Shown here in pieces: positions 1-55,396 of a stretch of DNA of 64,000 nucleotides. The DNA is taken from the NCBI RefSeq assembly GCF_044647545.1, contig NZ_CP172818.1; one strand, given 5' to 3'. This DNA is from Escherichia coli (lineage in GTDB: Bacteria; Pseudomonadota; Gammaproteobacteria; Enterobacterales; Enterobacteriaceae). The stretch's first letter is position 1; each line of letters starts with the position of its first letter. The position numbers were made by a program, and so were the translations under genes. Under the pieces are notes generated by a model. It had not been told where the DNA came from, ran no database searches, and was given only the letters and a program-made list of their open reading frames with translations.

Positions 1-83
1 GTAAACGATAAAGTCTCGGTAGAAGCAAAAGAGCTGATCGCAATAGGGGTTGTCAGGACTATTCCCAGAAGTTTCGCCCGCAT
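1..83 (-). CDS. ompT: Outer membrane protease OmpT, 5' fragment (start codon and signal peptide only; gene continues beyond window start)
   Basis: Reverse-complement of bases 1-83 translates MRAKLLGIVLTTPIAISSFASTETLSFT, which I recognise as the OmpT signal peptide and mature N-terminus; AT-rich upstream region follows. Confidence 0.7.
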   Translation of the reverse strand, partial: MRAKLLGIVLTTPIAISSFASTETLSF

Positions 84-507
84 AAAAGTTCTCCATTCAA
101 TCGTTTTAATGATTGAATATGTATTTTTTATATCTAACTTAATGAGTCAATTACATATTGCTCCACTGTTTATATTTTGTTTAGTATTGAATGATTATCA
201 CAATGCGCTATCTGTTTTTGGTTTAATTATCTGTTATTGTTTCATATTGCGGTTTTACTGTGTGGTTTTTTTATGCTTTTGTGGTGCTTTTATCTATTTA
301 AGTGCCATGCCTTTAGAGGCATATAAGCGAAAATAGCATGAGGTTTATCCTCAATTACTATGTTTTTTAGTACAAAAAAGAGGGACAAAACTGAGACACA
401 TAAGGCCTCACAATGGCTTGCAAGGCTTTACATGTTTTGAGGTAGTGGGACGTGTGAGCGCAGAGATGGCGCGGTAAGTTGTTGACTTAAAATGTCGTTC
501 TAGGAAC

Positions 508-551
508 TTCTAAGTCGTGGGCCGCAGGTTCGAATCCTGCAGGGCGCGCCA
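508..551 (+). pseudogene. pauD: 3' fragment of tRNA-Arg (argU-like), the DLP12 prophage right attachment-site remnant
   Basis: CTTCTAAGTCGTGGGCCGCAGGTTCGAATCCTGCAGGGCGCGCCA matches the anticodon-loop-to-3'-end portion of argU tRNA; no 5' half is present, so it is not a functional tRNA. Confidence 0.7.
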
Positions 552-595
552 TTTCTTCTTCATTTAATCCCGTCTTATCCGTTCCGCTTTGCTCT

Positions 596-1357
596 TCACC
601 ACATCACTTTTTGTCGCTGTTTGGCGAGATAATTCAACGGTGTCAGGCCGTAAAACGCCTTAAAAACAGAGATAAAGTACGACGTGCTGCTATAGCCACA
701 TAATTGCGCCACCTGAGTGATATTTTTGTTATCCATCAATAACATCTGTACGGCGTAACGCATACGACACTCTGTGACAATCTGGCTATAGCTGGTATTT
801 TCGTTTTTTAATTTCTTTTTGAGCAGGCTGGGGCTTAAACATAGCGAACTGGCGACAATTCGCAGATTCCAGTAATGCTGAATATCGCTTTGAATAATGC
901 GGCAGACGCTGTCGCGGACGCTGCTGCGTAAGATATACATCAGTAGGGCAATAAACCGCGATTGCTCAAGAAAGTTAGACAATACGGTAAAAAGCAATGC
1001 GCGCGTCAACTCCGCTTCGCAGGGTTTGCTGGGTTGCTGCTTGCTGTGGTTGGCGGCTAGCCGGAACACTTCCGGTGTACGGCTATGACAAGCGATAACC
1101 GGGGTTGCCAGCCGCGACCAGGGCTTTATACAGGTTAAGTTCTTATTTAAAAACAACAGATAATCGTTGATGATGTTACGGTTGATGTGGGTGATTAATA
1201 CGTGATTTAACGTTGAGAGTTCAATGACGTTATTGTTGCACGCGAAGGCGGCCAGGTAGTTTTTCGGAAGGGTAAACGTAGCATGGTTATTGACGCTTAC
1301 CTCTACCTCTTTTTCGGTCAGGATCACCACGCAAGGTTCACTGCTGCTCAATTGCAT
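596..1357 (-). CDS. envY: AraC-family transcriptional regulator (porin thermoregulation)
   Basis: 253-aa ORF with a C-terminal AraC-type helix-turn-helix region; sequence recognised as EnvY; position between ompT/attR and ybcH matches K-12 synteny. Confidence 0.85.
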   Translation of the reverse strand: MQLSSSEPCVVILTEKEVEVSVNNHATFTLPKNYLAAFACNNNVIELSTLNHVLITHINRNIINDYLLFLNKNLTCIKPWSRLATPVIACHSRTPEVFRLAANHSKQQPSKPCEAELTRALLFTVLSNFLEQSRFIALLMYILRSSVRDSVCRIIQSDIQHYWNLRIVASSLCLSPSLLKKKLKNENTSYSQIVTECRMRYAVQMLLMDNKNITQVAQLCGYSSTSYFISVFKAFYGLTPLNYLAKQRQKVMW

Positions 1358-1539
1358 TTCGCACTCCTCAGATATCAGAAACTCCGCTCAAAGGATCTAT
1401 GCTTCCTGCATGAGTGATCGGCCCGTTCGCCGATAACGATCTTCTTTCTTTAGCACGCTTTTTAGCAATTAATCTTGATGGAATTCTGACGAGAGCGAAA
1501 GAGGTAAGCCAGGTCGTACCCGACTTACCTGGAGGAGAT

Positions 1540-2430
1540 TTAATACTCGAGAATGCCGTGCGCGACGGGCAAATAGCGCAGAGAGAAATAGAGCGTGTCT
1601 TTACCGCAAGAGGAACGTTTCGCTAACAGCGAGGCAATTTCTGCGTCCGGTTTCGGTTTCGCTGTAAAGGTTTTGCCTTTGCCGGCGACAAACAGTTCAT
1701 AAACAATGCCGCTTGCTGGGGCGGAGCTTTGGCAATCGGCGCTGGCCTGTAGATAACGTTCACGCTGTTCAGCGGTCAGTTTATCCACGCCGCTGCCATC
1801 CTGTACCCAGACATTAACGCCGGTTGCTTTAACGTGTTCCAGCAGTTGGCGATAGCCATCGGGCGACATGTTTCCGGCGAAAAAACTACTGATATAAACC
1901 GGTTTTGCTGAAACATCGCTAATCAACCGCTGCGCGTTGTTTAACCATGTTAGCAAAGGCTGACGGGCGGCTTCGCTGCGCCAGTTCAGGTCGTCAATTT
2001 CCGCGCTGATGTACCAGCCATCCGGCGTTACGCCAGGTACGGCGCTCCATAATCTGGCTTGCTGGAGATCGGCAGCCAGCAGGCGGTTAAGATAGCTTTC
2101 CAGCGCTGCAGACGACTGTTTCTGGTGCATAAAAAATTCCGGATCGGCATTCAGCCCGACAATCAGCTTCAGGCCAGCCTGTTGCGCAGCTGCGGCACGC
2201 TTAAACAATAACGCGTGCTGTTCTGGCTGGGTGAATGCATCGCCGTAACGAGTCCATTGCAAAACCAGGGTATCGAAGCCTTGCAAACGTAACTGACTCA
2301 TCAGCCCCTGCCACTGGGTATCGGTAACCTGACTATCACGGTTTTGTGGTTGCCAGATAATACCTTTCATCGCAAAGGAAAAAGGGCTGACCAAAAGCAG
2401 TGTCAGCAATACGAAAATGAACTTACGCAT
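1540..2430 (-). CDS. ybcH: Exported protein, third gene of the nfrB-nfrA-ybcH operon
   Basis: 296-aa ORF with N-terminal signal peptide (MRKFIFVLLTLLLVSPFSFA); its start lies directly beside the nfrA stop on the same strand. Confidence 0.85.
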   Translation of the reverse strand: MRKFIFVLLTLLLVSPFSFAMKGIIWQPQNRDSQVTDTQWQGLMSQLRLQGFDTLVLQWTRYGDAFTQPEQHALLFKRAAAAQQAGLKLIVGLNADPEFFMHQKQSSAALESYLNRLLAADLQQARLWSAVPGVTPDGWYISAEIDDLNWRSEAARQPLLTWLNNAQRLISDVSAKPVYISSFFAGNMSPDGYRQLLEHVKATGVNVWVQDGSGVDKLTAEQRERYLQASADCQSSAPASGIVYELFVAGKGKTFTAKPKPDAEIASLLAKRSSCGKDTLYFSLRYLPVAHGILEY

Positions 2431-5403
2431 TTACCAGTGCACTCCAATGGTGAGAAACGCATTGTTGCGCTCTCCGTTACGTTGATTAATCGCCTTAAAG
2501 GTATGTTGATACTCGACGCCGAGACTGACTTTGTGCGGCCAGGCGTCGTAGTGCGTCTCGCCGGTCCAGATATTCCAGCGGACCCCGACACCGCCAAGCT
2601 GCGCGCCCTGAGTGCCTTTATCACGATAGCCGTTGTCCTGAACGTGAGCGTAAGGCTCAATAGTCTGTCCGTTAGCTACCTTCTGATGCCAGCTGACGCG
2701 ATAATCTGCCGTCCACGCCTGAATATCCTGGCGGATATATTGCGCTGCATCGAGGTACAGGTTTTGGGCAAACCAGCCTGAACCGTTCGGGTGCCATTCG
2801 TCGCTGTATTTGCCGCCATTAAAGAATGAGGCGCTGGCGCGCAGCATGGTATCGGATGCGCCATTTTGCCCGTTCAGCGGCAACTGCTGTTCGACGGCGA
2901 GGAAAAAGATCTGATCGCGCAGCGGCTTCCAGCGCAGACCGGTGCCGGACATCGGATTTTTCACCGGCATCATCACCCCGTTTTCTCCAGTATCGGCAAA
3001 TACACGGCTGTAAACCGAGAGCAGGTCGCCTTCCAGCAGCATATTGCGTCCGATGCGATACTCGGCTTCCAGTTGCCCGTAGCTACGATAGCTTTTCCCT
3101 GGCGCTGCGCCGCCGACATTATTGTTAGCGGTACTTATTGCGCCGGAACGCAAGCCGATAGAAGAATCGAAACTGAACGTCCAGCGGCGACCGACCTCCT
3201 CATGCAGACGGCGGAAATTGAAGCGTTGCTGATTTTGCTCTGGGGTCAGTGGGGTTATCAGCGCCTGATTATCAATGTCATCAATCACCAGCCGGGCGTA
3301 GTGCTGCGTCGCAGGCATGTCATCCAGACGCTGGTTCACGTAGGCCAGTTGTCGGATAAGTGCCGGATCGTCCGGTAGCCCTTTATGCGCCTGTTCGAGC
3401 ATTTCCCGCGACTGTGCGATATCACCGCTATCCCACAAGGCGTAACCGAGCGCTGCCTGGGTGTTGCTATTATTCGGTTCCAGTTCCAGCGCGGCGCGCA
3501 AATCACTCACCGCCGCCGGGACATTATGACGTTGGCGATAAATTGTCGCCCGCGCAACGTAAGCGTTGGCAGAAGGCGCAATATTGATTGAGCGCGTGAG
3601 ATCGTTCAGTGCGAGTTCCGGCTGACCAGGAATGTAACGTTGCGCATGCAGCCACCAGTAGAGGGCATTGTTTCCCAGCCCACGTTGTTCTGCCTGCTGA
3701 AGCCAGCGATCGCGAGCCGCACCATTTCCTGCCGCCTGGGCGGTATTGGCAGCAGCAAGCAGATCCTCATTGCTCATGTCGTGAAGACTGATTTTCTGCC
3801 AGGCCGCCAGTGCGGTGGCGTAGTCCTCAACCTGATACGCCTGATAGGCTACCGCACGATGTTGCCAGGCGTTCGGTTGTCGTTGTTCGGCCTGAAGCCA
3901 TGCATACAACGCCACACCGGGTAGCGTGTCCCGATAACACTTTGCCAGACGGTTCCAGGCGGCGGCATCGTAGGAAGGCGACATATCGCCCAGCAAGCGA
4001 ACTATTGCCGGGCAATTATCTGCAATACCCGGCAACTGACTTTGCCACTGACGTTGCTCCGCCAGCGGTAAAGGTTTCGATAAAATCGCCACCTTCGCCG
4101 GCGTTGCCAGGTAAGGATGACTTTCCAGCAGAGACGCCAGTCGCGCCATTAACGTCTGGCTGACACGCGCATCGCCCTGGAAAGGATAGCGTTGCAGCAA
4201 TAAATCGGCAGCTTCGCGTGACTGCTCGTTCTGCATCAGTTGCCAGGTCAGTTGATCCAGGCGGGTAAGATTTGCCGGTTCTTGCTGATACAGCAATCGT
4301 GCCAGACGCAGAGCTTCAGCCTTGTTATGGGTCGCTACGCTAACGGTATAACGCTCCTCAAGCATTTCATTGGCGGGGAGGGTGGCGAGCAGTTTTTGCG
4401 CTGCGTCGTACTGACCTTCTTTTAACAGCACCGGTAGCGTCGCGCCAACAACATACTGGCGGTTATCGGCAAACTGTACCGTATAATTCGCCAACGCCTG
4501 AACGGGGTTGACGCTGTATTTAGATAACAGATAGAGCCAACTTTTCTCTTGTGCGTCCGTGGTAAACAGCGGCTTATTTTCAATGAGATAATGCTGGAGG
4601 CGCGCTTTTTCGCCACGATAAGCCAGCGCGGTCGCGTAAGTAATATATGACTGAGGATCGGTGAAGATCCCCTGTGATTGCAGCGCCAGGATCCGATCAT
4701 CCAGCTGCGCGGCAAGAAGCACGTCAAACCACTGACGGCGTTCTGCCGCGCTTAATGTGTTCTGCTGGCGTGCTTCATTATATAGCGTATCTGCCTGGGA
4801 CCATTGTTTCAGGTAGATTGCGCGTTGCAGCAGATCGGTTCGCAACGTTTTTCCTTCCGGCGATGCAGCAAACGTCGCATCGTTTAGTTGCGCTCTGGCG
4901 ACAGGTAATTGTGCCAGCCGCAGGGCATTCTGCCCGACTTCACTGCGACAACGCAGGGTCGGCGCAGCGTCGCACGCTTTTTGCTGGGCAAGCAGTTCTT
5001 CAACAGTCGTAACGCTTTTCACTTCAACTGGAATAGCCGCCAGACTGCGCTCAAGTCGGGCATCTCCTGGGTGACGTTTCAGTTGATCCTCAAGCAACAG
5101 CCGCGCCCGGTCATCATGACCAAAATGGCGATAGGCTTCCGCAAGGTATAAAGTCAGCGGAATATTATCCGGCACCTGCTGGTGTATATATTCAAATTCG
5201 CGGATGGCGGTTGCTTCGTCGTTATTTTTCTGTGCCTTCAGCGCCTTGTCGAGACGGGGATAAATAACGAAATGGCGATAATCGCTCAGCCCCAGCTCTT
5301 CTGCGCTGGTGCCGATATTGTCTGCGAGTGCGCTGGTACTCAATAAAGACGTCAGCAGTAAACCAGACCATCCGATGACGCGATTAAGGTTATTCTCCTT
5401 CAT
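2431..5403 (-). CDS. nfrA: Outer-membrane phage N4 receptor subunit / polysaccharide export protein with TPR repeats
   Basis: 990-aa product starting MKENNLNRVIGWSGLLLTSLLSTSALA (signal peptide), long TPR-like N-terminal half, C-terminus ending in an aromatic residue (…GVHW) typical of outer-membrane beta-barrels. Confidence 0.9.
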   Translation of the reverse strand: MKENNLNRVIGWSGLLLTSLLSTSALADNIGTSAEELGLSDYRHFVIYPRLDKALKAQKNNDEATAIREFEYIHQQVPDNIPLTLYLAEAYRHFGHDDRARLLLEDQLKRHPGDARLERSLAAIPVEVKSVTTVEELLAQQKACDAAPTLRCRSEVGQNALRLAQLPVARAQLNDATFAASPEGKTLRTDLLQRAIYLKQWSQADTLYNEARQQNTLSAAERRQWFDVLLAAQLDDRILALQSQGIFTDPQSYITYATALAYRGEKARLQHYLIENKPLFTTDAQEKSWLYLLSKYSVNPVQALANYTVQFADNRQYVVGATLPVLLKEGQYDAAQKLLATLPANEMLEERYTVSVATHNKAEALRLARLLYQQEPANLTRLDQLTWQLMQNEQSREAADLLLQRYPFQGDARVSQTLMARLASLLESHPYLATPAKVAILSKPLPLAEQRQWQSQLPGIADNCPAIVRLLGDMSPSYDAAAWNRLAKCYRDTLPGVALYAWLQAEQRQPNAWQHRAVAYQAYQVEDYATALAAWQKISLHDMSNEDLLAAANTAQAAGNGAARDRWLQQAEQRGLGNNALYWWLHAQRYIPGQPELALNDLTRSINIAPSANAYVARATIYRQRHNVPAAVSDLRAALELEPNNSNTQAALGYALWDSGDIAQSREMLEQAHKGLPDDPALIRQLAYVNQRLDDMPATQHYARLVIDDIDNQALITPLTPEQNQQRFNFRRLHEEVGRRWTFSFDSSIGLRSGAISTANNNVGGAAPGKSYRSYGQLEAEYRIGRNMLLEGDLLSVYSRVFADTGENGVMMPVKNPMSGTGLRWKPLRDQIFFLAVEQQLPLNGQNGASDTMLRASASFFNGGKYSDEWHPNGSGWFAQNLYLDAAQYIRQDIQAWTADYRVSWHQKVANGQTIEPYAHVQDNGYRDKGTQGAQLGGVGVRWNIWTGETHYDAWPHKVSLGVEYQHTFKAINQRNGERNNAFLTIGVHW

Positions 5404-7627
5404 TTTCGGACTCCAGTTGCGCAACCTTTTCTGTGTTTAAACCTGCTTTGAGTAATAGTGATTGCATCGAAACTTGTAATTCGCGTTGAATTGTCAGAAC
5501 GCGATCCAACGTTTCCTGGCTGATAACGCCTTCGGTGACCAAAAACTTGCCGAGCGGCAGAGAACTGCGTTCATGGTGCAATAACAACACGTTAATTGCT
5601 GAACGATTAATATGACCGAGCGTGGTCAGTATTTCGGCGAACAGGAACTGATGCGGCACATATTGCCGCCAGATTTCACCGGCCTGCTGTTCCGTGAGCC
5701 ACTGATGCTGAACCGCATTGTACAACATTGCCCGCGGATCGTGACCGCGTCGGCGCGCATACCAGTGGCGTAACCCCGTGACAATTTGTCCCCGCAGAAC
5801 AATGACGTAACGCACTTTGCGTCCGACTTTACGCGTCAGGGCCGCCAGCGAAACCGGGTCAATACCATCTTCACTGCCGACAATTAACTCATCATTTTCC
5901 AGACGCAGCGGCAGCACTGCATAATGCAGCGCCACGGAGGCCGGCATCTCGGCAATCAGTGATGAAGGGATCTGCCAGGCGTCGATCGACTCCCACGCCA
6001 CGCCGTTTTGCTCTGCCAGCGCCTGTGCCAGCTGCTCGGCGCTAATCAGCCCCTGCATCAGCATTGAACCGCCAAGGCGTAGACCTTCGACGCGATTACG
6101 CAGTGCTGTATCGAGTTGTTCTTCAGTGATGACCTGATTTTCCAGCAGAATTTGACCTAACGGGCGCAACGAGCGGGTATCGCCAGTCACGCTGGGGAAG
6201 TCATGCGTTGTTTTATCCCACGCCACGCGACGTGGATCGCCGTGTTGAAGTACCTGTTTTAACGCGCGCCAGTTGGCCATGAAGTTAATCAGGTTGCCCC
6301 AGAAAAGACGCAGGACAGATAGTAGCCCCTGCGTCAGGCCGTAGTAGCCAGTGACGAAAATCACCCGCTGCACGATGCGGTTAACCATCAAGCCAAAGTT
6401 TAGCCACAGCAGGGTCATTAACCATGCGCTGCCGCTGAAAATAGAAAGGAAATGCCAGGCATCGGGCCACAAACTTTCATACGCCAGTAACAGCAAAAGC
6501 TGGATCATCACCAGCATCGCGAGGAAGCTGACAAAGTTACTGATTGCCCCTTTGCGGTCGCGCCAGAGAAAGTAGTTCAGCGTCAGGCTGGAGGTCCATT
6601 TGTGGGTTTTAAAGCCCTGGAAAACAATGCCGATGATCCAGCGAGATTTTTGTCGAACCGCCGTCGAAAAGGTATCGGGGAAATATTCGCGCACGCAGAT
6701 CATGTTTGACGTCCGCGCGTGCTGTAAAAATTTACGCTGCTCGCGTTCTTTGGCTTCGTCCACCACCGGAAAACGGACAAAAATTTCCGTCATACCTTTT
6801 TCTTTCAGGCGGAAACCAATGTCGTAATCTTCAGTAAGACTCTGCACGTCGAAAGCAATACCGTCACCGTCAGCTAACAGTGCGGTCACGGCGCGGCGGC
6901 TGAAACAAGTACCGACACCTGCGCTGGGCACCTGTCCGGCGAGGGCTTCACGCACCGGAACATCTTTGCCATGCAGTTCTGAAAACTCATCAATGTAAGT
7001 CATGCTGGTGAAGTGCGTCCATTCGCGTTCGAATGGGTATACCGGGATCTGAATCAGATCTTTACGCTCGACCAGATAGTTGAACAGACGCAATTCCATC
7101 GGTGAAATTACGTCTTCGGCGTCATGCAGAATAAAACCAGCAAAAGCGAAATTGGCGCTACGCTCAAACTGGGTGATGGCGTCCAGCACGTTGTTCAGGC
7201 AGTCGGCTTTGCTGGTGGGGCCAGGACGCGCGCAGACTACCTTATGCACGTTTGGGAAGCGAGCGCACACTTCGTCAACATCACGCTGAGTATCGGGGTC
7301 GTTGGGGTAGGTGCCAACAAAGATATGATAGTTTTCATAGTCGAGCGTGGTCGCCGCCAGCTCGGCCATATTGCCGATGACGCCCGTTTCATTCCACGCC
7401 GGAACCATAATCGCTAACGGTTTTTCATCTGGTTTATACAGTTCGCGGTAACTCATTCGCGGGTAGCGGCGATAAACACTCAACTTGCGTTTAATGCGGC
7501 GTACCCAGTAGACGACATCAATAAAAAAATCGTCCAGCCCGCTGATGAACATGATGACCGCTAACGTTATCGCGATTACTTTTAAGCCATATAGCCAGGT
7601 TGCAAAAACATCAAGAAGCCAGTCCAC
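5390..7627 (-). CDS. nfrB: Inner-membrane family-2 glycosyltransferase, phage N4 adsorption protein B (c-di-GMP-responsive)
   Basis: 745-aa ORF with N-terminal transmembrane segment, a DAED acidic motif and a QKSRW (QxxRW) motif characteristic of processive GT2 synthases; overlaps the nfrA start by 14 bp. Confidence 0.9.
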   Translation of the reverse strand: MDWLLDVFATWLYGLKVIAITLAVIMFISGLDDFFIDVVYWVRRIKRKLSVYRRYPRMSYRELYKPDEKPLAIMVPAWNETGVIGNMAELAATTLDYENYHIFVGTYPNDPDTQRDVDEVCARFPNVHKVVCARPGPTSKADCLNNVLDAITQFERSANFAFAGFILHDAEDVISPMELRLFNYLVERKDLIQIPVYPFEREWTHFTSMTYIDEFSELHGKDVPVREALAGQVPSAGVGTCFSRRAVTALLADGDGIAFDVQSLTEDYDIGFRLKEKGMTEIFVRFPVVDEAKEREQRKFLQHARTSNMICVREYFPDTFSTAVRQKSRWIIGIVFQGFKTHKWTSSLTLNYFLWRDRKGAISNFVSFLAMLVMIQLLLLLAYESLWPDAWHFLSIFSGSAWLMTLLWLNFGLMVNRIVQRVIFVTGYYGLTQGLLSVLRLFWGNLINFMANWRALKQVLQHGDPRRVAWDKTTHDFPSVTGDTRSLRPLGQILLENQVITEEQLDTALRNRVEGLRLGGSMLMQGLISAEQLAQALAEQNGVAWESIDAWQIPSSLIAEMPASVALHYAVLPLRLENDELIVGSEDGIDPVSLAALTRKVGRKVRYVIVLRGQIVTGLRHWYARRRGHDPRAMLYNAVQHQWLTEQQAGEIWRQYVPHQFLFAEILTTLGHINRSAINVLLLHHERSSLPLGKFLVTEGVISQETLDRVLTIQRELQVSMQSLLLKAGLNTEKVAQLESENEGE

Positions 7628-7776
7628 ACAAAAACCTTACATTAACGCTGGTTATGTTTAGGGTGGCGTATATTAAAGTTTTTTATGAATTGTGACAGCT
7701 TTTTATCATTAATAGGTAGGATTATTGCGGCACGTTATTTTTACACTGGTTATAAAAGTTGCCGATTGCTGAAGGA

Positions 7777-9219
7777 TTAAGCGGGTAGTTTGATCATAAA
7801 CCTTGTTCCCCGCGCATCTGACGTTACTGCAACCGTGCCTTTATGCGCGACAACAATTGATTTCACTATCGCCAGCCCAATGCCGCTACCTTCGCCTTTT
7901 CGCTGGCGGGAAGGATCAACGCGGTAGAAACGGTCAAACAATCGCGGTAAGTGTTCGGGCGCAATGGGCGTACCGGGGTTTTCGACGGAAACTTGCACCT
8001 GGTGATCGACCGTCTGGCAGCGCACAACAATTGCCTCTCCGGGTGGCGTATAACGCAGGGCGTTCGAAAGCAGGTTGCTTAACGCCCGACGCAACATCAG
8101 CGGATCGCCCGCAACCTGACACTCGTCACCAACAAACCGCAACTCCACGCCGCGATCTTCCGCTAACGCCTCGAAAAAATCGAACACTTTGCCGACTTCA
8201 TCCGCCAGGTTGAGCATTTTCTTTTCGGGGATTAACTGGTTGTTATCGGCCTGAGCGAGAAACAGCATATCGCTGACCATTTTCGCCATTCGAGTCAGCT
8301 CTTCGAGATTAGAGTAGAGCACATCTTCCAGCTCCTTCTGACTGCGCGACTGGCTGAGGGCGATTTCCGTTTGCGTTATGAGATTCGTAATCGGCGTGCG
8401 AATTTCGTGAGCGATATCCGCTGAGAAATTGGACTGGCGGGTAAAGACATCCTCGATACGCTCGATCATATGGTTGAACGACAGCACCAGTTGTTCGAGT
8501 TCAATGGGCACGGTCTGTGGATCGAGGCGAACGTCGAGATCTTTCGAGGTAATGTTCTGGATTTGACGGCTGACGCTGCGAATTGGCGCGTGGCCTTTAT
8601 GTACCGCCAGCAGCACGATAAAGACGATCAGGATGCTGATGATCGATGCGGTCATAATAAGTTTATTCATCAAATCATTTATGTAATGAAGATGAAAATC
8701 GATCGAAAGCGCGATGTAGAGCGTATAAATCGGTTTGCCGTCCACCAACGGGCCAACCGGCAAGTTAATCATCCGCCAGTTGCTGTGTTCCATATGCCCG
8801 TGACCGTGGCCTGGCATCATAATCGTCGGGCCGGAAAGGAGATACACCTCGCCACCCTGAGCGTCTTTATCGGGTATGGCGTCACGCGTAAACTCGCGGA
8901 TATCCGGCGCACCGGGGGAGTGATACACCGTTTTGCCGTGGCTATCTGCCAGGGAAATCAACACGTTGGAATAACCACTGACGATATCTTCCAGCGTCAT
9001 TAAGCGTCGGGCTTGCGTCTCGTCAGGATGATTAAGTACCCGTTCAAGGGTGGCGCTAATTTCTTTTAAATCATTAATATCCTGCTCGGCAAAATGCACT
9101 TTCACTGAGTGGATCATGATCCATGCAAAGGCGAAAAACGCCGCGATGGTGGCCAGGCTGATAAAAAAGGTCAGACGGGTTGCCAGCGAAAACGGGCGCT
9201 GAAATGGCTTACTGACCAT
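7777..9219 (-). CDS. cusS: Copper/silver-sensing histidine kinase
   Basis: 480-aa product from [16 protein letters not shown]; two transmembrane segments flanking a periplasmic domain, conserved His-containing phosphoacceptor region ([10 protein letters not shown]) and ATPase domain; overlaps cusR by 11 bp. Confidence 0.9.
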
Positions 9220-21702: not shown

Positions 21703-22029
21703 TTATGTTGGCGTTTTCTATTCAGTATAGAAGTGGGAGCGACTGGGCGAGATGCGGAAGTTCTGGAATATTTCTTTTTTTGGTGATGGTGAACTGATTG
21801 TGAGTGAAGCAATTTAGCTACTTTTTCAATGTGGCAAGTTATGGCACAGCTGGCTGGTGGCGAAGAATTTTGACGATTGAGGCATGCAGAAAAAACGGGC
21901 TCAGCTTCAGTTGATCAAATGGGGAGTGAGAAGTCCGAAACAGGATTCACTGTATAAATAAACAGCTATTTTGCTGAGGAAGCGTAAGATAACGGCGGGT
22001 GCCTGAAGCTTTCCGGTTTCAGGTTAACT

Positions 22030-22100
22030 CTGAGGTCTGGAAAGATGAAGCCCCAGGACGATATTTCTATCAACCCTGGGGCTGCCACTCCAAACCCGAA
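22030..22100 (-). ncRNA. sokE: Predicted Sok-type antisense RNA overlapping the mokE translation start (coordinates approximate)
   Basis: By analogy with hok/sok loci the antitoxin RNA is antisense to the mok start; on the minus strand a candidate promoter (TTGCCT, 17-nt spacer, TACCAT) sits near 22105-22135 and an inverted repeat (GCCCCAGG…CCTGGGGC) near 22049-22081. Ends not determined. Confidence 0.3.
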
Positions 22101-22233
22101 CAATTTGGATGGTAGTCCCTTCTTCGCATGGAGGCAATATAAACATGCTGACGAAATATGCCCTTGTGGCAGTCATAGTGCTGTGTTTAACGGTGCTGGG
22201 ATTTACGCTTCTGGTCGGCGACTCGCTGTGTGA
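22045..22233 (+). CDS. mokE: mok-type overlapping reading frame that couples translation to hokE
   Basis: 62-aa ATG-initiated ORF overlapping the first two-thirds of hokE in a different frame, the arrangement typical of hok/mok/sok loci. Confidence 0.4.
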
Positions 22234-23039: not shown

Positions 23040-23213
23040 GTCGACCATATTAGAGACTGATGACAAACGCAAAACTGCCTGATGCGCTACGCTTATCAGG
23101 CCTACGTGGTCCTGCAATATATTGAATTGGCAAGATTTTTGTAGGCCGGATAAGGCGTTCACGCCGCATCCGGCATGAACGACGCGCACTTTGTCAACAA
23201 TCTGACGTTAGCA

Positions 23214-25611: not shown

Positions 25612-25676
25612 TTGCAAATGCAAATAGTTATCAATAATATTATCAATATATTTCTGCAATCAATGAAAAATTGCAC
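25612..25676. promoter_or_regulatory. Fur-box cluster in the fepA/fes divergent promoter region
   Basis: AT-rich hexamer array GCAAATGCAAATAGTTATCAATAATATTATCAATAT resembling the GATAAT-type Fur consensus, plus TGCAAT…ATTGCA inverted repeat. Confidence 0.55.
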
Positions 25677-25696: not shown

Positions 25697-26899
25697 GTGA
25701 CGGCGTTAAAAGTAGGAAGTGAGAGCTGGTGGCAGTCGAAACATGGCCCGGAATGGCAGCGTCTGAATGACGAAATGTTTGAGGTCACTTTCTGGTGGCG
25801 TGATCCCCAAGGTTCTGAAGAATACTCGACGATAAAGCGCGTATGGGTCTACATCACTGGTGTGACCGATCACCATCAGAACAGCCAGCCCCAGTCGATG
25901 CAGCGAATTGCAGGCACCAACGTCTGGCAGTGGACGACACAGCTCAATGCCAACTGGCGCGGCAGCTACTGCTTTATTCCCACCGAACGCGATGACATTT
26001 TTTCTGCACCATCCCCCGATCGCCTCGAATTACGTGAAGGCTGGCGAAAACTATTACCCCAGGCGATAGCCGATCCGCTGAATCCACAAAGCTGGAAAGG
26101 CGGGCGAGGGCACGCTGTTTCTGCACTCGAAATGCCGCAAGCGCCTCTGCAACCGGGATGGGATTGTCCGCAAGCGCCAGAAACGCCTGCCAAAGAAATT
26201 ATCTGGAAAAGTGAACGGTTGAAAAATTCACGCCGTGTATGGATTTTTATCACCGGCGATGCAACAGCAGAAGAACGCCCGCTGGCAGTTTTGCTTGATG
26301 GTGAATTTTGGGCGCAGAGTATGCCCGTCTGGCCTGCGCTAACTTCGCTGACCCATCGTCGGCAACTTCCTCCCGCCGTGTATGTGTTGATCGATGCTAT
26401 CGACACCACGCACCGCGCCCACGAACTGCCGTGTAATGCGGATTTCTGGCTGGCAGTACAGCAAGAGTTATTACCCCTGGTGAAAGCTATTGCCTCTTTT
26501 AGCGATCGCGCCGATCGCACCGTGGTCGCCGGGCAGAGTTTTGGTGGGCTTTCCGCGCTGTATGCCGGACTGCACTGGCCTGAACGCTTTGGCTGTGTAT
26601 TAAGCCAGTCAGGATCGTACTGGTGGCCGCATCGGGGCGGGCAGCAAGAAGGTGCTTTACTTGAGCAACTTAAAGCTGGTCAAGTTAGCGCCGAAGGTCT
26701 GCGCATTGTGCTGGAAGCGGGTATTCGCGAGCCGATGATCATGCAGGCCAATCAGGCGCTGTATGCGCAATTACACCCCATAAAAGAATCCATTTTCTGG
26801 CGTCAGGTTGACGGCGGACATGATGCGCTTTGTTGGCGCGGTGGCTTGATGCAGGGGCTAATCGACCTCTGGCAACCACTTTTCCATGACAGGAGTTGA
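25697..26899 (+). CDS. fes: Ferric enterobactin esterase
   Basis: ORF from a GTG start (MTALKVGSESWWQSKHGPEWQ…), 400 aa; esterase GQSFGG (GxSxG) motif present. A later start giving about 374 aa is possible. Confidence 0.88.
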   Translation: MTALKVGSESWWQSKHGPEWQRLNDEMFEVTFWWRDPQGSEEYSTIKRVWVYITGVTDHHQNSQPQSMQRIAGTNVWQWTTQLNANWRGSYCFIPTERDDIFSAPSPDRLELREGWRKLLPQAIADPLNPQSWKGGRGHAVSALEMPQAPLQPGWDCPQAPETPAKEIIWKSERLKNSRRVWIFITGDATAEERPLAVLLDGEFWAQSMPVWPALTSLTHRRQLPPAVYVLIDAIDTTHRAHELPCNADFWLAVQQELLPLVKAIASFSDRADRTVVAGQSFGGLSALYAGLHWPERFGCVLSQSGSYWWPHRGGQQEGALLEQLKAGQVSAEGLRIVLEAGIREPMIMQANQALYAQLHPIKESIFWRQVDGGHDALCWRGGLMQGLIDLWQPLFHDRS

Positions 26900-26901
26900 A
26901 T

Positions 26902-27120
26902 ATGGCATTCAGTAATCCCTTCGATGATCCACAGGGAGCGTTTTACATTTTGCGCAATGCGCAGGGGCAATTCAGTCTGTGGCCGCAACAATGCCTCTTA
27001 CCGGCAGGCTGGGACATTGTGTGTCAGCCGCAGTCACAAGAGTCCTGCCAGCAGTGGCTGGAAGTCCACTGGCGTACTCTGACACCGGCGAATTTCACCC
27101 AGTTGCAGGAGGCACAATGA
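26902..27120 (+). CDS. ybdZ: MbtH-like protein, NRPS adenylation-domain partner
   Basis: 72-aa ORF MAFSNPFDDPQGAFYILRNAQGQFSLWPQQ… with the conserved Trp pattern of MbtH-like proteins; its ATG lies 2 bp after the fes stop and its stop overlaps the entF ATG. Confidence 0.85.
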   Translation: MAFSNPFDDPQGAFYILRNAQGQFSLWPQQCLLPAGWDIVCQPQSQESCQQWLEVHWRTLTPANFTQLQEAQ

Positions 27121-30100
27121 GCCAGCATTTACCTTTGGTCGCCGCACAGCCCGGCATCTGGATGGCAGAAAAACTGTCGGATTTACCCTCCGCCTGGAGC
27201 GTGGCGCATTACGTTGAGTTAACCGGAGAGGTTGATGCGCCATTACTGGCCCGCGCGGTGGTTGCCGGATTAGCGCAAGCAGATACGCTGCGGATGCGTT
27301 TTACGGAAGATAACGGCGAAGTCTGGCAATGGGTCGATGATGCGCTGACGTTCGAACTGCCAGAAATTATCGACCTGCGAACCAACATTGATCCGCACGG
27401 TACTGCGCAGGCATTAATGCAGGCGGATTTGCAACAAGATCTGCGCGTCGATAGCGGTAAACCACTGGTCTTTCATCAGTTGATACAGGTGGCGGATAAC
27501 CGCTGGTACTGGTATCAGCGTTATCACCATTTGCTGGTCGATGGGTTTAGTTTCCCGGCCATTACCCGCCAGATCGCCAACATTTACTGCGCATGGCTGC
27601 GTGGCGAACCTACGCCTGCTTCGCCGTTTACGCCTTTCGCTGATGTAGTGGAAGAGTACCAGCAATACCGCGAAAGCGAAGCCTGGCAGCGTGATGCGGC
27701 ATTCTGGGCGGAACAGCGTCGTCAATTGCCGCCGCCCGCGTCACTTTCTCCGGCACCTTTACCGGGGCGCAGCGCCTCGGCAGATATTCTGCGCCTGAAA
27801 CTGGAATTTACCGACGGGGAATTCCGCCAGTTGGCTACGCAACTTTCAGGTGTGCAGCGTACCGATTTAGCCCTTGCGTTGGCAGCCTTGTGGCTGGGGC
27901 GATTGTGCAACCGCATGGACTACGCTGCCGGATTTATCTTTATGCGTCGACTGGGCTCGGCGGCGCTGACGGCTACCGGACCCGTGCTCAACGTTTTGCC
28001 GTTGGGTATTCATATTGCGGCGCAAGAAACGCTGCCGGAACTGGCAACCCGACTGGCGGCTCAACTGAAAAAAATGCGTCGCCATCAACGTTACGATGCC
28101 GAACAAATTGTCCGTGACAGCGGGCGAGCGGCAGGTGATGAACCGCTGTTTGGTCCGGTACTCAATATCAAGGTATTTGATTACCAACTGGATATTCCTG
28201 ATGTTCAGGCGCAAACCCATACCCTGGCTACCGGTCCGGTTAATGACCTTGAGCTGGCCCTGTTCCCGGATGAACACGGTGATTTGAGTATTGAGATCCT
28301 CGCCAATAAACAGCGTTACGATGAGCCAACGTTAATTCAACACGCTGAACGCCTGAAAATGCTGATTGCCCAGTTCGCCGCGGATCCGGCGCTGTTGTGC
28401 GGCGATGTCGATATTATGCTGCCAGGTGAATATGCGCAGCTGGCGCAGATCAACGCCACTCAGGTTGAGATTCCAGAAACCACGCTGAGCGCGCTGGTGG
28501 CAGAACAAGCGGCAAAAACACCGGATGCTCCGGCGCTGGTTGATGCGCGTTACCAGTTCAGCTATCGGGAAATGCGCGAACAGGTGGTGGCGCTGGCGAA
28601 TCTGCTGCGTGAGCGCGGCGTTAAACCAGGCGACAGCGTGGCGGTGGCATTACCGCGCTCGGTCTTTTTGACCCTGGCGCTACATGCGATTGTTGAAGCT
28701 GGTGCGGCCTGGCTACCTCTGGATACCGGCTATCCGGACGATCGCCTGAAAATGATGCTGGAAGATGCGCGTCCATCGCTGTTAATCACCACCGACGATC
28801 AACTGCCGCGCTTTGCCGATGTTCCAGATTTAACCCGCCTTTGCTATAACGCCCCGCTTATACCACAGGGCAGTGCGCCGCTGCAGCTTTCACAACCGCA
28901 CCACACGGCTTATATCATCTTCACCTCCGGTTCCACCGGCAGGCCGAAAGGGGTAATGGTCGGGCAGACGGCTATCGTTAACCGCCTGCTCTGGATGCAA
29001 AACCACTACCCGCTTACAGGCGAAGATGTCGTTGCCCAAAAAACGCCGTGCAGTTTTGATGTCTCGGTGTGGGAGTTTTTCTGGCCGTTTATTGCCGGGG
29101 CTAAACTGGTGATGGCTGAACCGGAAGCGCACCGCGACCCGCTCGCTATGCAGCAATTCTTTGCCGAATATGGTGTAACAACCACGCACTTTGTGCCGTC
29201 GATGCTGGCGGCATTTGTTGCATCGATGACGCCGCAAACCGCTCGTCAGAGTTGCGCGACGTTGAAACAGGTTTTCTGTAGTGGTGAGGCCTTACCGGCT
29301 GATTTATGCCGCGAATGGCAACAGTTAACCGGCGCGCCGTTGCATAATCTGTATGGCCCGACGGAAGCAGCGGTAGATGTCAGCTGGTATCCGGCCTTTG
29401 GCGAGGAACTGGCACAGGTACGCGGCAGCAGTGTGCCGATTGGTTATCCGGTGTGGAATACGGGCCTGCGCATTCTCGATGCGATGATGCATCCGGTGCC
29501 GCCGGGTGTGGCGGGAGATCTCTATCTCACCGGTATTCAACTGGCGCAGGGGTATCTTGGACGACCCGATCTGACAGCCAGCCGCTTTATTGCCGATCCT
29601 TTTGCGCCAGGTGAACGCATGTACCGTACCGGAGATGTTGCCCGCTGGCTGGATAACGGCGCGGTGGAGTATCTCGGGCGTAGTGATGATCAGCTAAAAA
29701 TTCGCGGGCAGCGTATCGAACTGGGCGAAATTGATCGCGTGATGCAGGCGCTGCCGGATGTCGAACAAGCCGTTACCCACGCCTGTGTGATTAACCAGGC
29801 GGCAGCCACTGGTGGTGATGCGCGTCAGTTGGTGGGCTATCTGGTGTCGCAATCAGGTCTGCCGTTGGATACCAGCGCATTACAGGCGCAGCTTCGTGAA
29901 ACATTGCCACCACATATGGTACCGGTGGTTCTGCTGCAACTTCCACAGTTACCACTTAGCGCCAACGGCAAGCTGGATCGCAAAGCCTTACCGTTGCCTG
30001 AACTGAAGGCACAAGCGCCGGGGCGTGCGCCGAAAGCGGGCAGTGAAACGATTATCGCCGCGGCATTCTCGTCGTTGCTGGGTTGTGACGTGCAGGATGC

Positions 30101-30998
30101 CGATGCTGATTTCTTTGCGCTTGGCGGTCATTCGCTACTGGCAATGAAACTGGCAGCGCAGTTAAGTCGGCAGTTTGCCCGTCAGGTGACGCCGGGTCAG
30201 GTGATGGTCGCGTCAACCGTCGCCAAACTGGCAACGATTATTGATGGTGAAGAAGACAGCACCCAGCGCATGGGATTCGAAACCATTCTGCCGTTGCGTG
30301 AAGGTAATGGTCCGACGCTGTTTTGTTTCCATCCGGCATCCGGTTTTGCCTGGCAGTTTAGCGTGCTCTCGCGTTATCTCGATCCACAATGGTCGATTAT
30401 TGGCATCCAGTCGCCACGCCCTCATGGCCCCATGCAGACGGCGGCAAACCTGGATGAAGTCTGCGAAGCGCATCTGGCAACGTTACTTGAGCATCAACCG
30501 CACGGCCCTTATTACCTGCTGGGTTATTCGCTGGGCGGTACGCTGGCGCAGGGTATTGCGGCGCGGCTGCGTGCCCGTGGCGAACAGGTGGCATTTCTTG
30601 GCTTGCTGGATACCTGGCCGCCAGAAACGCAAAACTGGCAGGAAAAAGAGGCTAATGGCCTGGACCCGGAAGTGCTGGCGGAGATTAACCGCGAGCGCGA
30701 GGCCTTCCTGGCGGCACAGCAGGGAAGTACTTCAACGGAGTTGTTTACCACCATTGAAGGCAACTACGCTGATGCTGTGCGCCTGCTGACGACTGCTCAT
30801 AGCGTACCGTTTGAAGGTAAAGCGACGCTGTTTGTTGCTGAACGCACGCTTCAGGAAGGTATGAATCCCGAACGCGCCTGGTCGCCGTGGATTACGGAGC
30901 TGGATATCTATCGTCAGGATTGTGCGCATGTGGATATTATCTCGCCGATGGCGTTTGAAAAAATAGGGCCGATTATTCGTGCGACGCTAAATAAGTAA
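27117..30998 (+). CDS. entF: Enterobactin non-ribosomal peptide synthetase (C-A-PCP-TE, serine-activating)
   Basis: 1293-aa product from MSQHLPLVAAQPGIWMAEKL; adenylation core FTSGSTGRPKG, carrier-domain GGHSL motif, thioesterase GYSLGG motif all visible. Confidence 0.95.
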   Translation: MSQHLPLVAAQPGIWMAEKLSDLPSAWSVAHYVELTGEVDAPLLARAVVAGLAQADTLRMRFTEDNGEVWQWVDDALTFELPEIIDLRTNIDPHGTAQALMQADLQQDLRVDSGKPLVFHQLIQVADNRWYWYQRYHHLLVDGFSFPAITRQIANIYCAWLRGEPTPASPFTPFADVVEEYQQYRESEAWQRDAAFWAEQRRQLPPPASLSPAPLPGRSASADILRLKLEFTDGEFRQLATQLSGVQRTDLALALAALWLGRLCNRMDYAAGFIFMRRLGSAALTATGPVLNVLPLGIHIAAQETLPELATRLAAQLKKMRRHQRYDAEQIVRDSGRAAGDEPLFGPVLNIKVFDYQLDIPDVQAQTHTLATGPVNDLELALFPDEHGDLSIEILANKQRYDEPTLIQHAERLKMLIAQFAADPALLCGDVDIMLPGEYAQLAQINATQVEIPETTLSALVAEQAAKTPDAPALVDARYQFSYREMREQVVALANLLRERGVKPGDSVAVALPRSVFLTLALHAIVEAGAAWLPLDTGYPDDRLKMMLEDARPSLLITTDDQLPRFADVPDLTRLCYNAPLIPQGSAPLQLSQPHHTAYIIFTSGSTGRPKGVMVGQTAIVNRLLWMQNHYPLTGEDVVAQKTPCSFDVSVWEFFWPFIAGAKLVMAEPEAHRDPLAMQQFFAEYGVTTTHFVPSMLAAFVASMTPQTARQSCATLKQVFCSGEALPADLCREWQQLTGAPLHNLYGPTEAAVDVSWYPAFGEELAQVRGSSVPIGYPVWNTGLRILDAMMHPVPPGVAGDLYLTGIQLAQGYLGRPDLTASRFIADPFAPGERMYRTGDVARWLDNGAVEYLGRSDDQLKIRGQRIELGEIDRVMQALPDVEQAVTHACVINQAAATGGDARQLVGYLVSQSGLPLDTSALQAQLRETLPPHMVPVVLLQLPQLPLSANGKLDRKALPLPELKAQAPGRAPKAGSETIIAAAFSSLLGCDVQDADADFFALGGHSLLAMKLAAQLSRQFARQVTPGQVMVASTVAKLATIIDGEEDSTQRMGFETILPLREGNGPTLFCFHPASGFAWQFSVLSRYLDPQWSIIGIQSPRPHGPMQTAANLDEVCEAHLATLLEHQPHGPYYLLGYSLGGTLAQGIAARLRARGEQVAFLGLLDTWPPETQNWQEKEANGLDPEVLAEINREREAFLAAQQGSTSTELFTTIEGNYADAVRLLTTAHSVPFEGKATLFVAERTLQEGMNPERAWSPWITELDIYRQDCAHVDIISPMAFEKIGPIIRATLNK

Positions 30999-31011
30999 AT
31001 TTATATTATCT

Positions 31012-31060
31012 ATAAACCCATAATTACAATAAATGATTATGGGTTTATTATTTATTTAAT
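31012..31060 (+). terminator. AT-rich 13-bp perfect inverted repeat followed by T-rich tract downstream of entF
   Basis: ATAAACCCATAAT … ATTATGGGTTTAT with about an 11-nt loop, then TTATTTATTTAATTTAT; about 14 bp after the entF stop. Confidence 0.5.
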
Positions 31061-35160: not shown

Positions 35161-35185
35161 GATAATGAAATTAATTATCGTTATC
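35161..35185. promoter_or_regulatory. Fur box in the fepD/entS divergent promoter region
   Basis: GATAATGAAATTAATTATCGTTATC is a close match to the Fur consensus GATAATGATAATCATTATC and sits immediately upstream of the fepD start. Confidence 0.6.
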
Positions 35186-51303: not shown

Positions 51304-51674
51304 TAATTTGTCCTTTTCAGTCAGTGCAAAAGTCGAGTAAAAGGCATAACCTATCACTGTCATAGGTAAGAGCTTAGATCAGGTGATTGCCCTTTGTTTA
51401 TGAGGGTGTTGTAATCCATGTCGTTGTTGCATTTGTAAGGGCAACACCTCAGCCTGCAGGCAGGCGCTGAAGATACCAAAGGGTAGTTCAGATTACACGG
51501 TCACCTGGAAAGGGGGCCATTTTACTTTTTATCGCCGCTGGCGGTGCAAAGTTCACAAAGTTGTCTTACGAAGGTTGTAAGGTAAAACTTATCGATTTGA
51601 TAATGGAAACGCATTAGCCGAATCGGCAAAAATTGGTTACCTTACATCTCATCGAAAACACGGAGGAAGTATAG

Positions 51675-55167: not shown

Positions 55168-55214
55168 TTTTACTCCATGTCGTCGGTACTGCGAGTGTCG
55201 CAGATAAACATACC

Positions 55215-55250
55215 CAAAAGAAAACCCTCACCGTCAGGCGGCGAGGGTTT
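55215..55250 (-). terminator. Hairpin terminator between rna and rnk (minus strand)
   Basis: AACCCTCACCG…CGGCGAGGGTT inverted repeat; on the minus-strand transcript it is followed by UUUUCUUUUGGG. Confidence 0.5.
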
Positions 55251-55396
55251 AACTCACATGATGATACTGACTGTTGCTCACTCTTTGAAGTGATTTGCGT
55301 CACATTCAGGGAATTCCTCAATGTAGCGCATTATGTATAAATCTTAATCGTCATGGTTTATGGAAGACGAATTAGCGTGTTTTGTAAATCAGAGGA

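What the first reader, a model, noticed from the sequence alone, without database searches (positions are those of the whole stretch)
26896..27120. Translationally coupled fes-ybdZ-entF junctions with a 72-aa MbtH-like ORF
The ybdZ ATG lies 2 bp after the fes stop and the ybdZ stop overlaps the entF ATG (ATGA). The small protein has the MbtH-like Trp pattern, pointing to stoichiometric co-production with the EntF adenylation domain. Small ORFs like this are often missed by gene callers.
Basis: partly seen in the sequence, partly recalled or inferred. Interest (0 to 1): 0.2.

Follow-up and report, generated by a model that had tools for sequence, protein, structure and literature searches.

The report
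Known ybdZ gene in enterobactin operon

Summary
The fes stop (TGA 26897-26899) is followed after 2 nt by the ybdZ ATG (26902). The ybdZ stop overlaps the entF start as ATGA (27117-27120). The 72-aa product hits Pfam MbtH (73.5 bits against a cut-off of 27). It is 68/72 identical to YbdZ crystallised on EntF (PDB 5JA1_B).

The segment occurs in 5414 of 5426 complete E. coli genomes. ybdZ was annotated in every full-length record I sampled, so gene callers do not miss it here. The literature treats fes-ybdZ-entF-fepE as one Fur-regulated operon. It reports that YbdZ is needed for enterobactin and that MbtH-like proteins act 1:1 with adenylation domains.

The "translational coupling" claim rests on geometry only. 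The tight ybdZ-entF junction is conserved in 9 of 9 loci (-8 to +1 nt), and all six Escherichia loci share the exact geometry. However, both genes have good Shine-Dalgarno sites of their own that are not buried in RNA structure. Overlaps or gaps of 2 nt or less occur at 8 of 24 same-strand gene pairs nearby. Coupling is therefore plausible but unproven and unremarkable.

Verdict: already known, low interest.

The parts
25614..25650 (.). AT-rich stretch in the fepA-fes divergent intergenic region with weak Fur-box-like matches repeating every 6 bp. Probable Fur operator of the fes promoter.
   Evidence: the best match to the 19-bp Fur consensus has 6 mismatches at 25614, and a series of 7-mismatch matches falls at 25614, 25620, 25626 and 25632. 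One search found no match with 3 or fewer mismatches here. Fur regulation of fes-ybdZ-entF-fepE is taken from the literature. The assignment is weak by sequence alone.
25697..26899 (+). fes, enterochelin esterase (400 aa, GTG start), first gene of the operon
   Evidence: Pfam Enterochelin_N 143.9 bits and Esterase 78.5 bits. PGAP annotation has identical coordinates.
26891..26895 (+). Shine-Dalgarno AGGAG for ybdZ, lying inside the last codons of fes, 6 nt before the ATG
   Evidence: duplex with the 16S 3' end -6.9 kcal/mol. The motif (A/C)AGGAGTT is conserved in all 9 loci from 4 genera.
26902..27120 (+). ybdZ, 72-aa MbtH-like protein and partner of the EntF adenylation domain
   Evidence: Pfam MbtH 73.5 bits. 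68/72 identical to PDB 5JA1_B. Annotated as ybdZ in E. coli genomes. pN/pS 0.13-0.38.
27107..27112 (+). Shine-Dalgarno AGGAGG for entF, inside the 3' end of ybdZ, 4 nt before the ATG
   Evidence: duplex -10.3 kcal/mol, and only 0.2% of sampled window positions reach -10 or lower. The mean unpaired probability of the SD-to-start region is 0.50, so it is not sequestered.
27117..27120 (+). ATGA overlap of the entF start codon with the ybdZ stop codon
   Evidence: Identical in all 6 Escherichia loci and in Yokenella. It is a +1-nt gap in Enterobacter sp. kpr-6 and an 8-nt overlap in Trabulsiella.
27117..30998 (+). entF, a 1293-aa C-A-PCP-TE non-ribosomal peptide synthetase (L-serine module)
   Evidence: Pfam Condensation, AMP-binding, PP-binding and Thioesterase. 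PGAP annotation.
31012..31048 (+). 15-bp AT-rich hairpin followed by a T-rich tract, 14 nt after the entF stop. Possible partial terminator before fepE.
   Evidence: terminator-like site. (MFE -18.6 kcal/mol, z = -4.33, 0 of 200 shuffles as stable).

Best explanation
The ORF at 26902-27120 is ybdZ. It is the MbtH-like protein (MLP) of the E. coli enterobactin pathway and the second gene of the Fur-repressed fes-ybdZ-entF(-fepE) operon.

Under iron limitation, one transcript from the fes promoter carries all three genes. YbdZ binds the adenylation domain of EntF 1:1, raises its solubility and serine-adenylation activity, and is needed for enterobactin production. These points are shown by others for the K-12 protein, which is 94% identical.

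Placing ybdZ directly upstream of entF, with an ATGA stop/start overlap, keeps the two on one mRNA. It probably lets some ribosomes that terminate on ybdZ reinitiate on entF. Because entF also has a strong, accessible AGGAGG site, I infer that coupling is partial and not obligatory. The YbdZ:EntF production ratio is then set mainly by the two ribosome-binding sites. This last step is inference, not shown.
For: Identity: Pfam MbtH 73.5 bits against a cut-off of 27. PDB 5JA1_B 'Enterobactin biosynthesis protein YbdZ' E 7e-46, 68/72 identical. W27, W37 and W57 align with the conserved Trp residues of the MLPs 6EA3, 2MYY, 2KHR and 5U89.

Context: fes and entF domain content. PGAP coordinates are identical. 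The segment is present in 5414 of 5426 complete E. coli genomes.

Real gene: the frame is conserved at 69-73 aa in 4 genera, with pN/pS 0.13-0.38.

One transcription unit: no promoter-like or terminator-like site lies between 26225 and 28031. The literature lists fes-ybdZ-entF-fepE as a Fur operon, with RNA log2 changes of -5.04, -4.96, -3.10 and -1.69.

Function: the EntF-YbdZ crystal complex (PMC10510592). A ybdZ deletion abolishes enterobactin, YbdZ enhances EntF solubility and activity, and MLP:A-domain stoichiometry is 1:1 (PMC7593251). Salmonella ybdZ is induced about 200-fold by iron restriction and its deletion impairs growth (PMC11176087). ybdZ is listed among the enterobactin-pathway genes significantly enriched under severe acid stress in an E. 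coli ribosome-profiling study (PMC10746267). MLP domains fused to NRPS chains (4GR4/4GR5 and 6N8E) are independent support for a fixed 1:1 pairing.

Junction: the ybdZ-entF distance stays between -8 and +1 nt in 9 of 9 loci.
Against: Nothing argues against the identity.

Against obligatory coupling or coupling-enforced stoichiometry:
- Both downstream genes have their own SD sites (-6.9 and -10.3 kcal/mol), with unpaired probability 0.57 and 0.50.
- The fes-ybdZ gap is 12-18 nt outside Escherichia, and the ybdZ-entF junction takes three different forms.
- Tight junctions are common in neighbouring operons, at 8 of 24 pairs.
- No synthesis-rate or protein copy-number data could be obtained.

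NCBIfam has no model hitting the protein. The WTDxRP motif of MLPs is degenerate in YbdZ (WRTLTP), a known peculiarity.
Confidence: 0.95

Rival explanations
1. The tight junctions are only operon compaction. fes, ybdZ and entF are each initiated independently at their own Shine-Dalgarno sites, and the ATGA overlap has no role in setting the YbdZ:EntF ratio.
For: Strong, structurally accessible SD sites sit before ybdZ and entF. The junction spacing is not fixed across genera: fes-ybdZ is 2, 12, 16 or 18 nt, and ybdZ-entF is -8, -4 or +1 nt. Overlaps or gaps of 2 nt or less occur at 8 of 24 same-strand pairs nearby, including pairs not known to form 1:1 complexes.
Against: The ybdZ-entF junction never opens beyond 1 nt in 9 of 9 loci, while protein identity falls to 59%. 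[quoted passage not shown]
Confidence: 0.4
2. The protein starts at the TTG at 26896 (74 aa), as the reported start coordinate and the maximal ORF imply, and so overlaps the fes stop codon.
For: TTG 26896 is in frame and is the first start codon of the ORF. It is present in all 6 Escherichia loci.
Against: The AGGAG ends immediately before the TTG (spacing 0), which is unsuitable for initiation. No such upstream start exists in Enterobacter, Yokenella or Trabulsiella, where only the ATG is available. PGAP and the crystallised protein begin at MAFSN.
Confidence: 0.02
3. The 72-codon frame is a chance ORF in a fes-entF spacer and is not translated.
For: None found. It is considered only because the ORF is short.
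Against: Pfam hit E 8.7e-21. A solved structure exists for the protein. There is purifying selection and a conserved frame. A ribosome-profiling study lists ybdZ among the significantly enriched enterobactin genes, and deletion phenotypes are reported.
Confidence: 0.01

Closest known systems
E. coli K-12 YbdZ (PDB 5JA1 chain B, in complex with EntF)
   Same: Same gene at the same position between fes and entF. Same length (72 aa), 68/72 identical, with the same stop/start geometry.
   Different: Four substitutions (V32L, A47E, A55V, T63A). This allele is found at 99% DNA identity or more in 443 of 5414 genomes. Effects of these substitutions were not tested.
MbtH of Mycobacterium tuberculosis and other stand-alone MbtH-like proteins (PDB 2KHR, 6EA3, 2MYY, 5U89, PA2412 2PST)
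   Same: About 70 aa, with the NPFDD...SLWP...P(A/Q/P)GW...W core and three aligned Trp residues. Encoded beside an NRPS with an adenylation domain.
   Different: In YbdZ the family's WTDxRP motif reads WRTLTP and the usual E of NxExQ is Q. YbdZ has an extra Trp at position 52.
MLP domains fused to NRPS chains (SlgN1, PDB 4GR4/4GR5; ObiF1, PDB 6N8E)
   Same: The same domain paired with an adenylation domain.
   Different: Here the two are separate polypeptides, divided by a stop codon that overlaps the next start. The ratio is therefore not fixed by covalent linkage.
Overlapping stop/start (ATGA) translational coupling, as in many bacterial operons
   Same: A 4-nt ATGA overlap, a downstream SD inside the upstream coding sequence, and a shared transcript.
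   Different: Dependence of entF translation on ybdZ translation was not tested. The entF ribosome-binding site is not predicted to be masked by structure.

Membership tests
MbtH-like protein family (Pfam PF03621) | Profile HMM score above the curated gathering threshold | tested here: met
   73.5 bits against a cut-off of 27, E 8.7e-21, covering profile positions 2-52 of 53.
MbtH-like protein family (Pfam PF03621) | Three conserved tryptophans (SxWP, PxGW, W of WTDxRP) | tested here: met
   W27, W37 and W57 align with the Trp residues of 6EA3, 2MYY, 2KHR and 5U89.
MbtH-like protein family (Pfam PF03621) | Complete WTDxRP motif | tested here: not met
   The sequence reads WRTLTP (residues 57-62). 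The literature notes that YbdZ departs from this motif at the R position yet is a functional MLP. This is a variable motif, not a disqualifying feature.
MbtH-like protein family (Pfam PF03621) | Small stand-alone protein (about 70 aa) encoded next to an NRPS with an adenylation domain | tested here: met
   72 aa. The next gene is EntF, with AMP-binding at 300 bits.
MbtH-like protein family (Pfam PF03621) | Physical binding to, and activation of, the partner adenylation domain | not testable with these tools
   Shown by others for the 94%-identical K-12 protein: complex 5JA1 and biochemistry summarised in PMC7593251.
YbdZ orthologue group (E. coli enterobactin MLP) | Near-identity to YbdZ and synteny fes-ybdZ-entF | tested here: met
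   68/72 identical to 5JA1_B. PGAP labels it ybdZ with identical coordinates. The same order holds in 9 loci.
YbdZ orthologue group (E. coli enterobactin MLP) | Match to a curated NCBIfam model | tested here: not met
   No NCBIfam family at E 0.001 or better. PGAP nevertheless names the protein, presumably by another rule, so this says nothing against membership.
Translationally coupled gene pair | Same transcript, with no intervening promoter or terminator | tested here: met
   No consensus site lies between 26225 and 28031. The operon is listed in the literature.
Translationally coupled gene pair | Stop and start codons overlapping or within a few nucleotides | tested here: met
   A 2-nt gap and an ATGA overlap. 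ybdZ-entF stays at -8 to +1 nt in 9 of 9 loci.
Translationally coupled gene pair | Downstream ribosome-binding site masked unless the upstream gene is translated | tested here: inconclusive
   Mean unpaired probability of the SD-to-start region is 0.57 (ybdZ) and 0.50 (entF), close to the local averages of 0.48 and 0.46. No masking is evident, but this is a prediction only.
Translationally coupled gene pair | Downstream translation falls when upstream translation is blocked | not testable with these tools
   Needs a reporter or Ribo-seq experiment. The 1987 paper on coupled fes/entF expression is not held.

The most novel reading that the evidence does not exclude
The order and ATGA junction may do more than co-regulate. 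YbdZ is finished on the same mRNA just before EntF synthesis begins. It would therefore be released next to the nascent EntF chain and could capture its adenylation domain co-translationally. This would be operon-directed assembly in cis, with termination-reinitiation guaranteeing at least one YbdZ per EntF. That could explain why the ybdZ-entF junction stays within -8 to +1 nt while the fes-ybdZ gap drifts from 2 to 18 nt.
Probability: 0.15. Interest if true: 0.3.

Novelty: already known. Interest (0 to 1): 0.05.

Why it matters
It matters little beyond confirming that the first-stage reader can recognise a short real gene and its junctions from raw sequence. ybdZ, its MbtH fold, its complex with EntF and its operon are all published and routinely annotated. 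The one open point is whether the ATGA junction actually couples translation or sets the YbdZ:EntF ratio. That question is modest and specific to this operon. It could inform the design of MLP/NRPS co-expression constructs, but it would not surprise a specialist.

Tried and rejected
- NCBIfam scan of the 72-aa protein: no hit. This is uninformative, because Pfam and PDB are decisive.
- Fur consensus search with 3 or fewer mismatches: it found only the fepD-entS site at 35161, not a fes operator. A looser scan gave weak matches with a 6-bp period at 25614-25650, which I list as weak evidence.
- Ribosome-profiling numbers: the supplementary files of PMC10746267 that are held as text contain no ybdZ, entF or fes rows, so only the paper's text statement could be used.
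- Primary papers not held: Schomer 2018, Pettis & McIntosh 1987, Miller 2016, Felnagle 2010, Schomer & Thomas 2017 and the proteome paper PMC4888949. Their content is cited only through secondary sources or by title.
- The genome-contig scan used exact 8-residue words, so it returned only 9 loci. No Salmonella or Klebsiella locus was obtained, and the cross-genus sample is small.
- TTG 26896 as the start: rejected (see rivals).
- The long upstream extension of the entF frame (GTG 26979): rejected as chance. The frame is closed by stop codons upstream of the ATG in E. albertii, Enterobacter, Yokenella and Trabulsiella.
- Rfam at gathering threshold: no RNA family at or near the junctions.
- Structure prediction was not run, because a crystal structure of the near-identical protein exists.

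Full report
**Observation.** I read window 26780-27260 and listed the ORFs.
- The long + strand frame that starts at GTG 25697 ends with TGA at 26897-26899.
- Two bases (AT) follow, then ATG at 26902.
- That frame runs 72 codons (MAFSNPFDDPQGAFYILRNAQGQFSLWPQQCLLPAGWDIVCQPQSQESCQQWLEVHWRTLTPANFTQLQEAQ) to TGA at 27118-27120.
- The next long frame has an ATG at 27117-27119, so the two genes share ATGA. It encodes 1293 aa and ends at 30998.

The only slip is the start coordinate. 26896 is the TTG of the maximal 74-codon ORF, not the ATG named in the text.

**Identity.**
- The 72-aa protein hits Pfam MbtH (PF03621) at 73.5 bits against a gathering score of 27.
- The upstream protein has the enterochelin-esterase N-terminal and esterase domains.
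- The downstream protein has Condensation, AMP-binding, PP-binding and Thioesterase domains, which is the EntF architecture.
- Against solved structures, the best match is 5JA1 chain B, 'Enterobactin biosynthesis protein YbdZ'. It matches over all 72 residues with four substitutions: V32L, A47E, A55V and T63A.
- Alignments to four other solved MbtH-like proteins place W27, W37 and W57 on the family's conserved Trp residues. The family's WTDxRP motif reads WRTLTP here. The literature notes that YbdZ departs from this motif.
- NCBIfam has no model that hits the protein.

**Distribution and annotation.**
- A 1-kb segment across the junctions is found in 5414 of 5426 complete E. coli genomes. It is 100% identical in several, including strain ST648.
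- In NZ_CP033850.1, PGAP annotates fes, ybdZ and entF at exactly the coordinates I derived.
- In a spread sample down the whole ranking, all 39 full-length rows had ybdZ annotated, as 'enterobactin biosynthesis protein YbdZ' or 'MbtH family protein'.
- The remark that such ORFs are often missed therefore does not apply to this locus.

**Is it a real, constrained gene?**
- A scan of one genome per species returned nine loci.
- The frame is intact at 69-73 aa in five further Escherichia lineages, Enterobacter sp. kpr-6, Yokenella regensburgei and Trabulsiella guamensis. Identity ranges from 96% down to 59%.
- Within Escherichia, substitutions concentrate at third codon positions. pN/pS is 0.13-0.38, which indicates purifying selection. 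It is looser than in the flanking 600 nt of fes (0.06-0.14) and entF (0.05-0.17).

**Operon context.**
- No promoter-like or terminator-like consensus site lies between 26225 and 28031.
- Papers list fes-ybdZ-entF-fepE as one Fur-regulated operon. One gives RNA log2 changes of -5.04, -4.96, -3.10 and -1.69 along it.
- The fepA-fes intergenic region holds only weak Fur-box matches with a 6-bp period, at 25614-25650. The one good consensus match in the window is at 35161, between fepD and entS.
- A 15-bp hairpin with a T-rich tail follows entF at 31012-31048. It has z = -4.33.
- Rfam finds nothing at the junctions.

**Function (from the literature).**
- EntF has been crystallised with YbdZ bound to its adenylation domain (PMC10510592).
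- Deletion of ybdZ abolishes enterobactin production. YbdZ enhances EntF solubility and catalysis. MLP:A-domain complexes work at 1:1 (PMC7593251, summarising Felnagle 2010 and others).
- In Salmonella, ybdZ is induced about 200-fold by iron restriction, and its deletion impairs growth (PMC11176087).
- An E. coli K-12 ribosome-profiling study lists ybdZ among the enterobactin genes significantly enriched at pH 4.4 (PMC10746267). I could not obtain per-gene numbers.

**The coupling claim.**

Evidence in favour:
- The ybdZ-entF junction is ATGA in all six Escherichia loci and in Yokenella. It is a 1-nt gap in Enterobacter and an 8-nt overlap in Trabulsiella. It therefore never opens beyond 1 nt.
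- The motif (A/C)AGGAGTT before ybdZ is conserved in all nine loci.
[quoted passage not shown] It is not held, so I cannot say what kind of coupling it showed.

Evidence against a strong reading:
- ybdZ and entF have their own Shine-Dalgarno sites. The duplex energies are -6.9 and -10.3 kcal/mol, and only 0.2% of sampled window positions reach -10 or lower.
- Predicted structure does not mask these sites.
- The fes-ybdZ gap is 12-18 nt outside Escherichia.
- Tight junctions are routine. Of the 24 same-strand neighbouring pairs in the part of the reference colinear with the window, 8 overlap or lie within 2 nt, and three are ATGA.

I conclude that co-transcription is established and a 1:1 complex is established. 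Some termination-reinitiation at ATGA is likely. Coupling-enforced stoichiometry is an untested inference.

**Comparison and verdict.** This is E. coli ybdZ itself, as a minority allele with four substitutions, in its normal place. Nothing distinguishes it from the described gene. Novelty: already known. Interest: low. The most novel reading not excluded is that the gene order and junction serve co-translational capture of nascent EntF by freshly made YbdZ. I give that about 15%.

Noticed in passing
L011 (NZ_CP182374.1, E. coli bR_120_Kylling) 4034-4036; corresponds to window ~26896-27770: A natural deletion removes ybdZ and the 5' part of entF. fes and 'enterobactin synthase subunit F' are both annotated as truncated pseudogenes that abut each other. 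This strain is presumably enterobactin-negative. In addition, 12 of 5426 genomes lack the segment altogether, and 2 matching places are on plasmids.
   Followed up: partly
L007 (NZ_GG670150.1, 223 bp): A 223-bp scaffold of the 'Lactobacillus johnsonii ATCC 33200' assembly is E. coli ybdZ/entF junction DNA. It carries the K-12-type YbdZ residues (V32, A47, A55, T63) and the ATGA overlap. This is almost certainly E. coli contamination of that assembly.
   Followed up: partly
window 7769-7784: Window 1-7769 (ompT-envY-ybcH-nfrB-nfrA) adjoins the cusS region directly. The otherwise 99.99%-identical strain FDAARGOS_497 carries about 10.4 kb with vgrG, a DcrB-related gene and an RHS-repeat gene between them. 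This is a presence/absence polymorphism of a T6SS effector island.
   Followed up: partly
window ~11,400: A single-base indel relative to NZ_CP033850.1 shifts the register between window 7784 and about 11,400, near the end of cusC or the cusC-cusF spacer. I did not check whether it affects a reading frame.
   Followed up: no
window 31012-31048: A very stable AT-rich 15-bp hairpin plus T-tract lies 14 nt after the entF stop (z = -4.33). It is a possible partial terminator. This would fit the weaker co-regulation of fepE (log2 -1.69, against -3.1 to -5.0 for fes, ybdZ and entF) reported in PMC8910356.
   Followed up: partly
window 35161-35179: The only match in the window to the 19-bp Fur-box consensus with 3 or fewer mismatches, with none expected by chance. 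It lies in the divergent fepD-entS intergenic region.
   Followed up: no
window 21997-22153 (+), 23098-23139 (-), 51437-51530 (+), 55213-55321 (-): Rfam matches above gathering score: the sok antitoxin RNA next to hokE, ES036 sRNA between entD and fepA, STnc70 sRNA, and the rnk leader. A pseudogene with an internal stop is annotated opposite hokE at 21907-22176.
   Followed up: no
window 26902-27117: ybdZ evolves under looser constraint than its neighbours within Escherichia: pN/pS 0.13-0.38, against 0.05-0.17 for adjacent parts of fes and entF. The window's allele differs from the crystallised K-12 protein at four positions: 32, 47, 55 and 63.
   Followed up: partly
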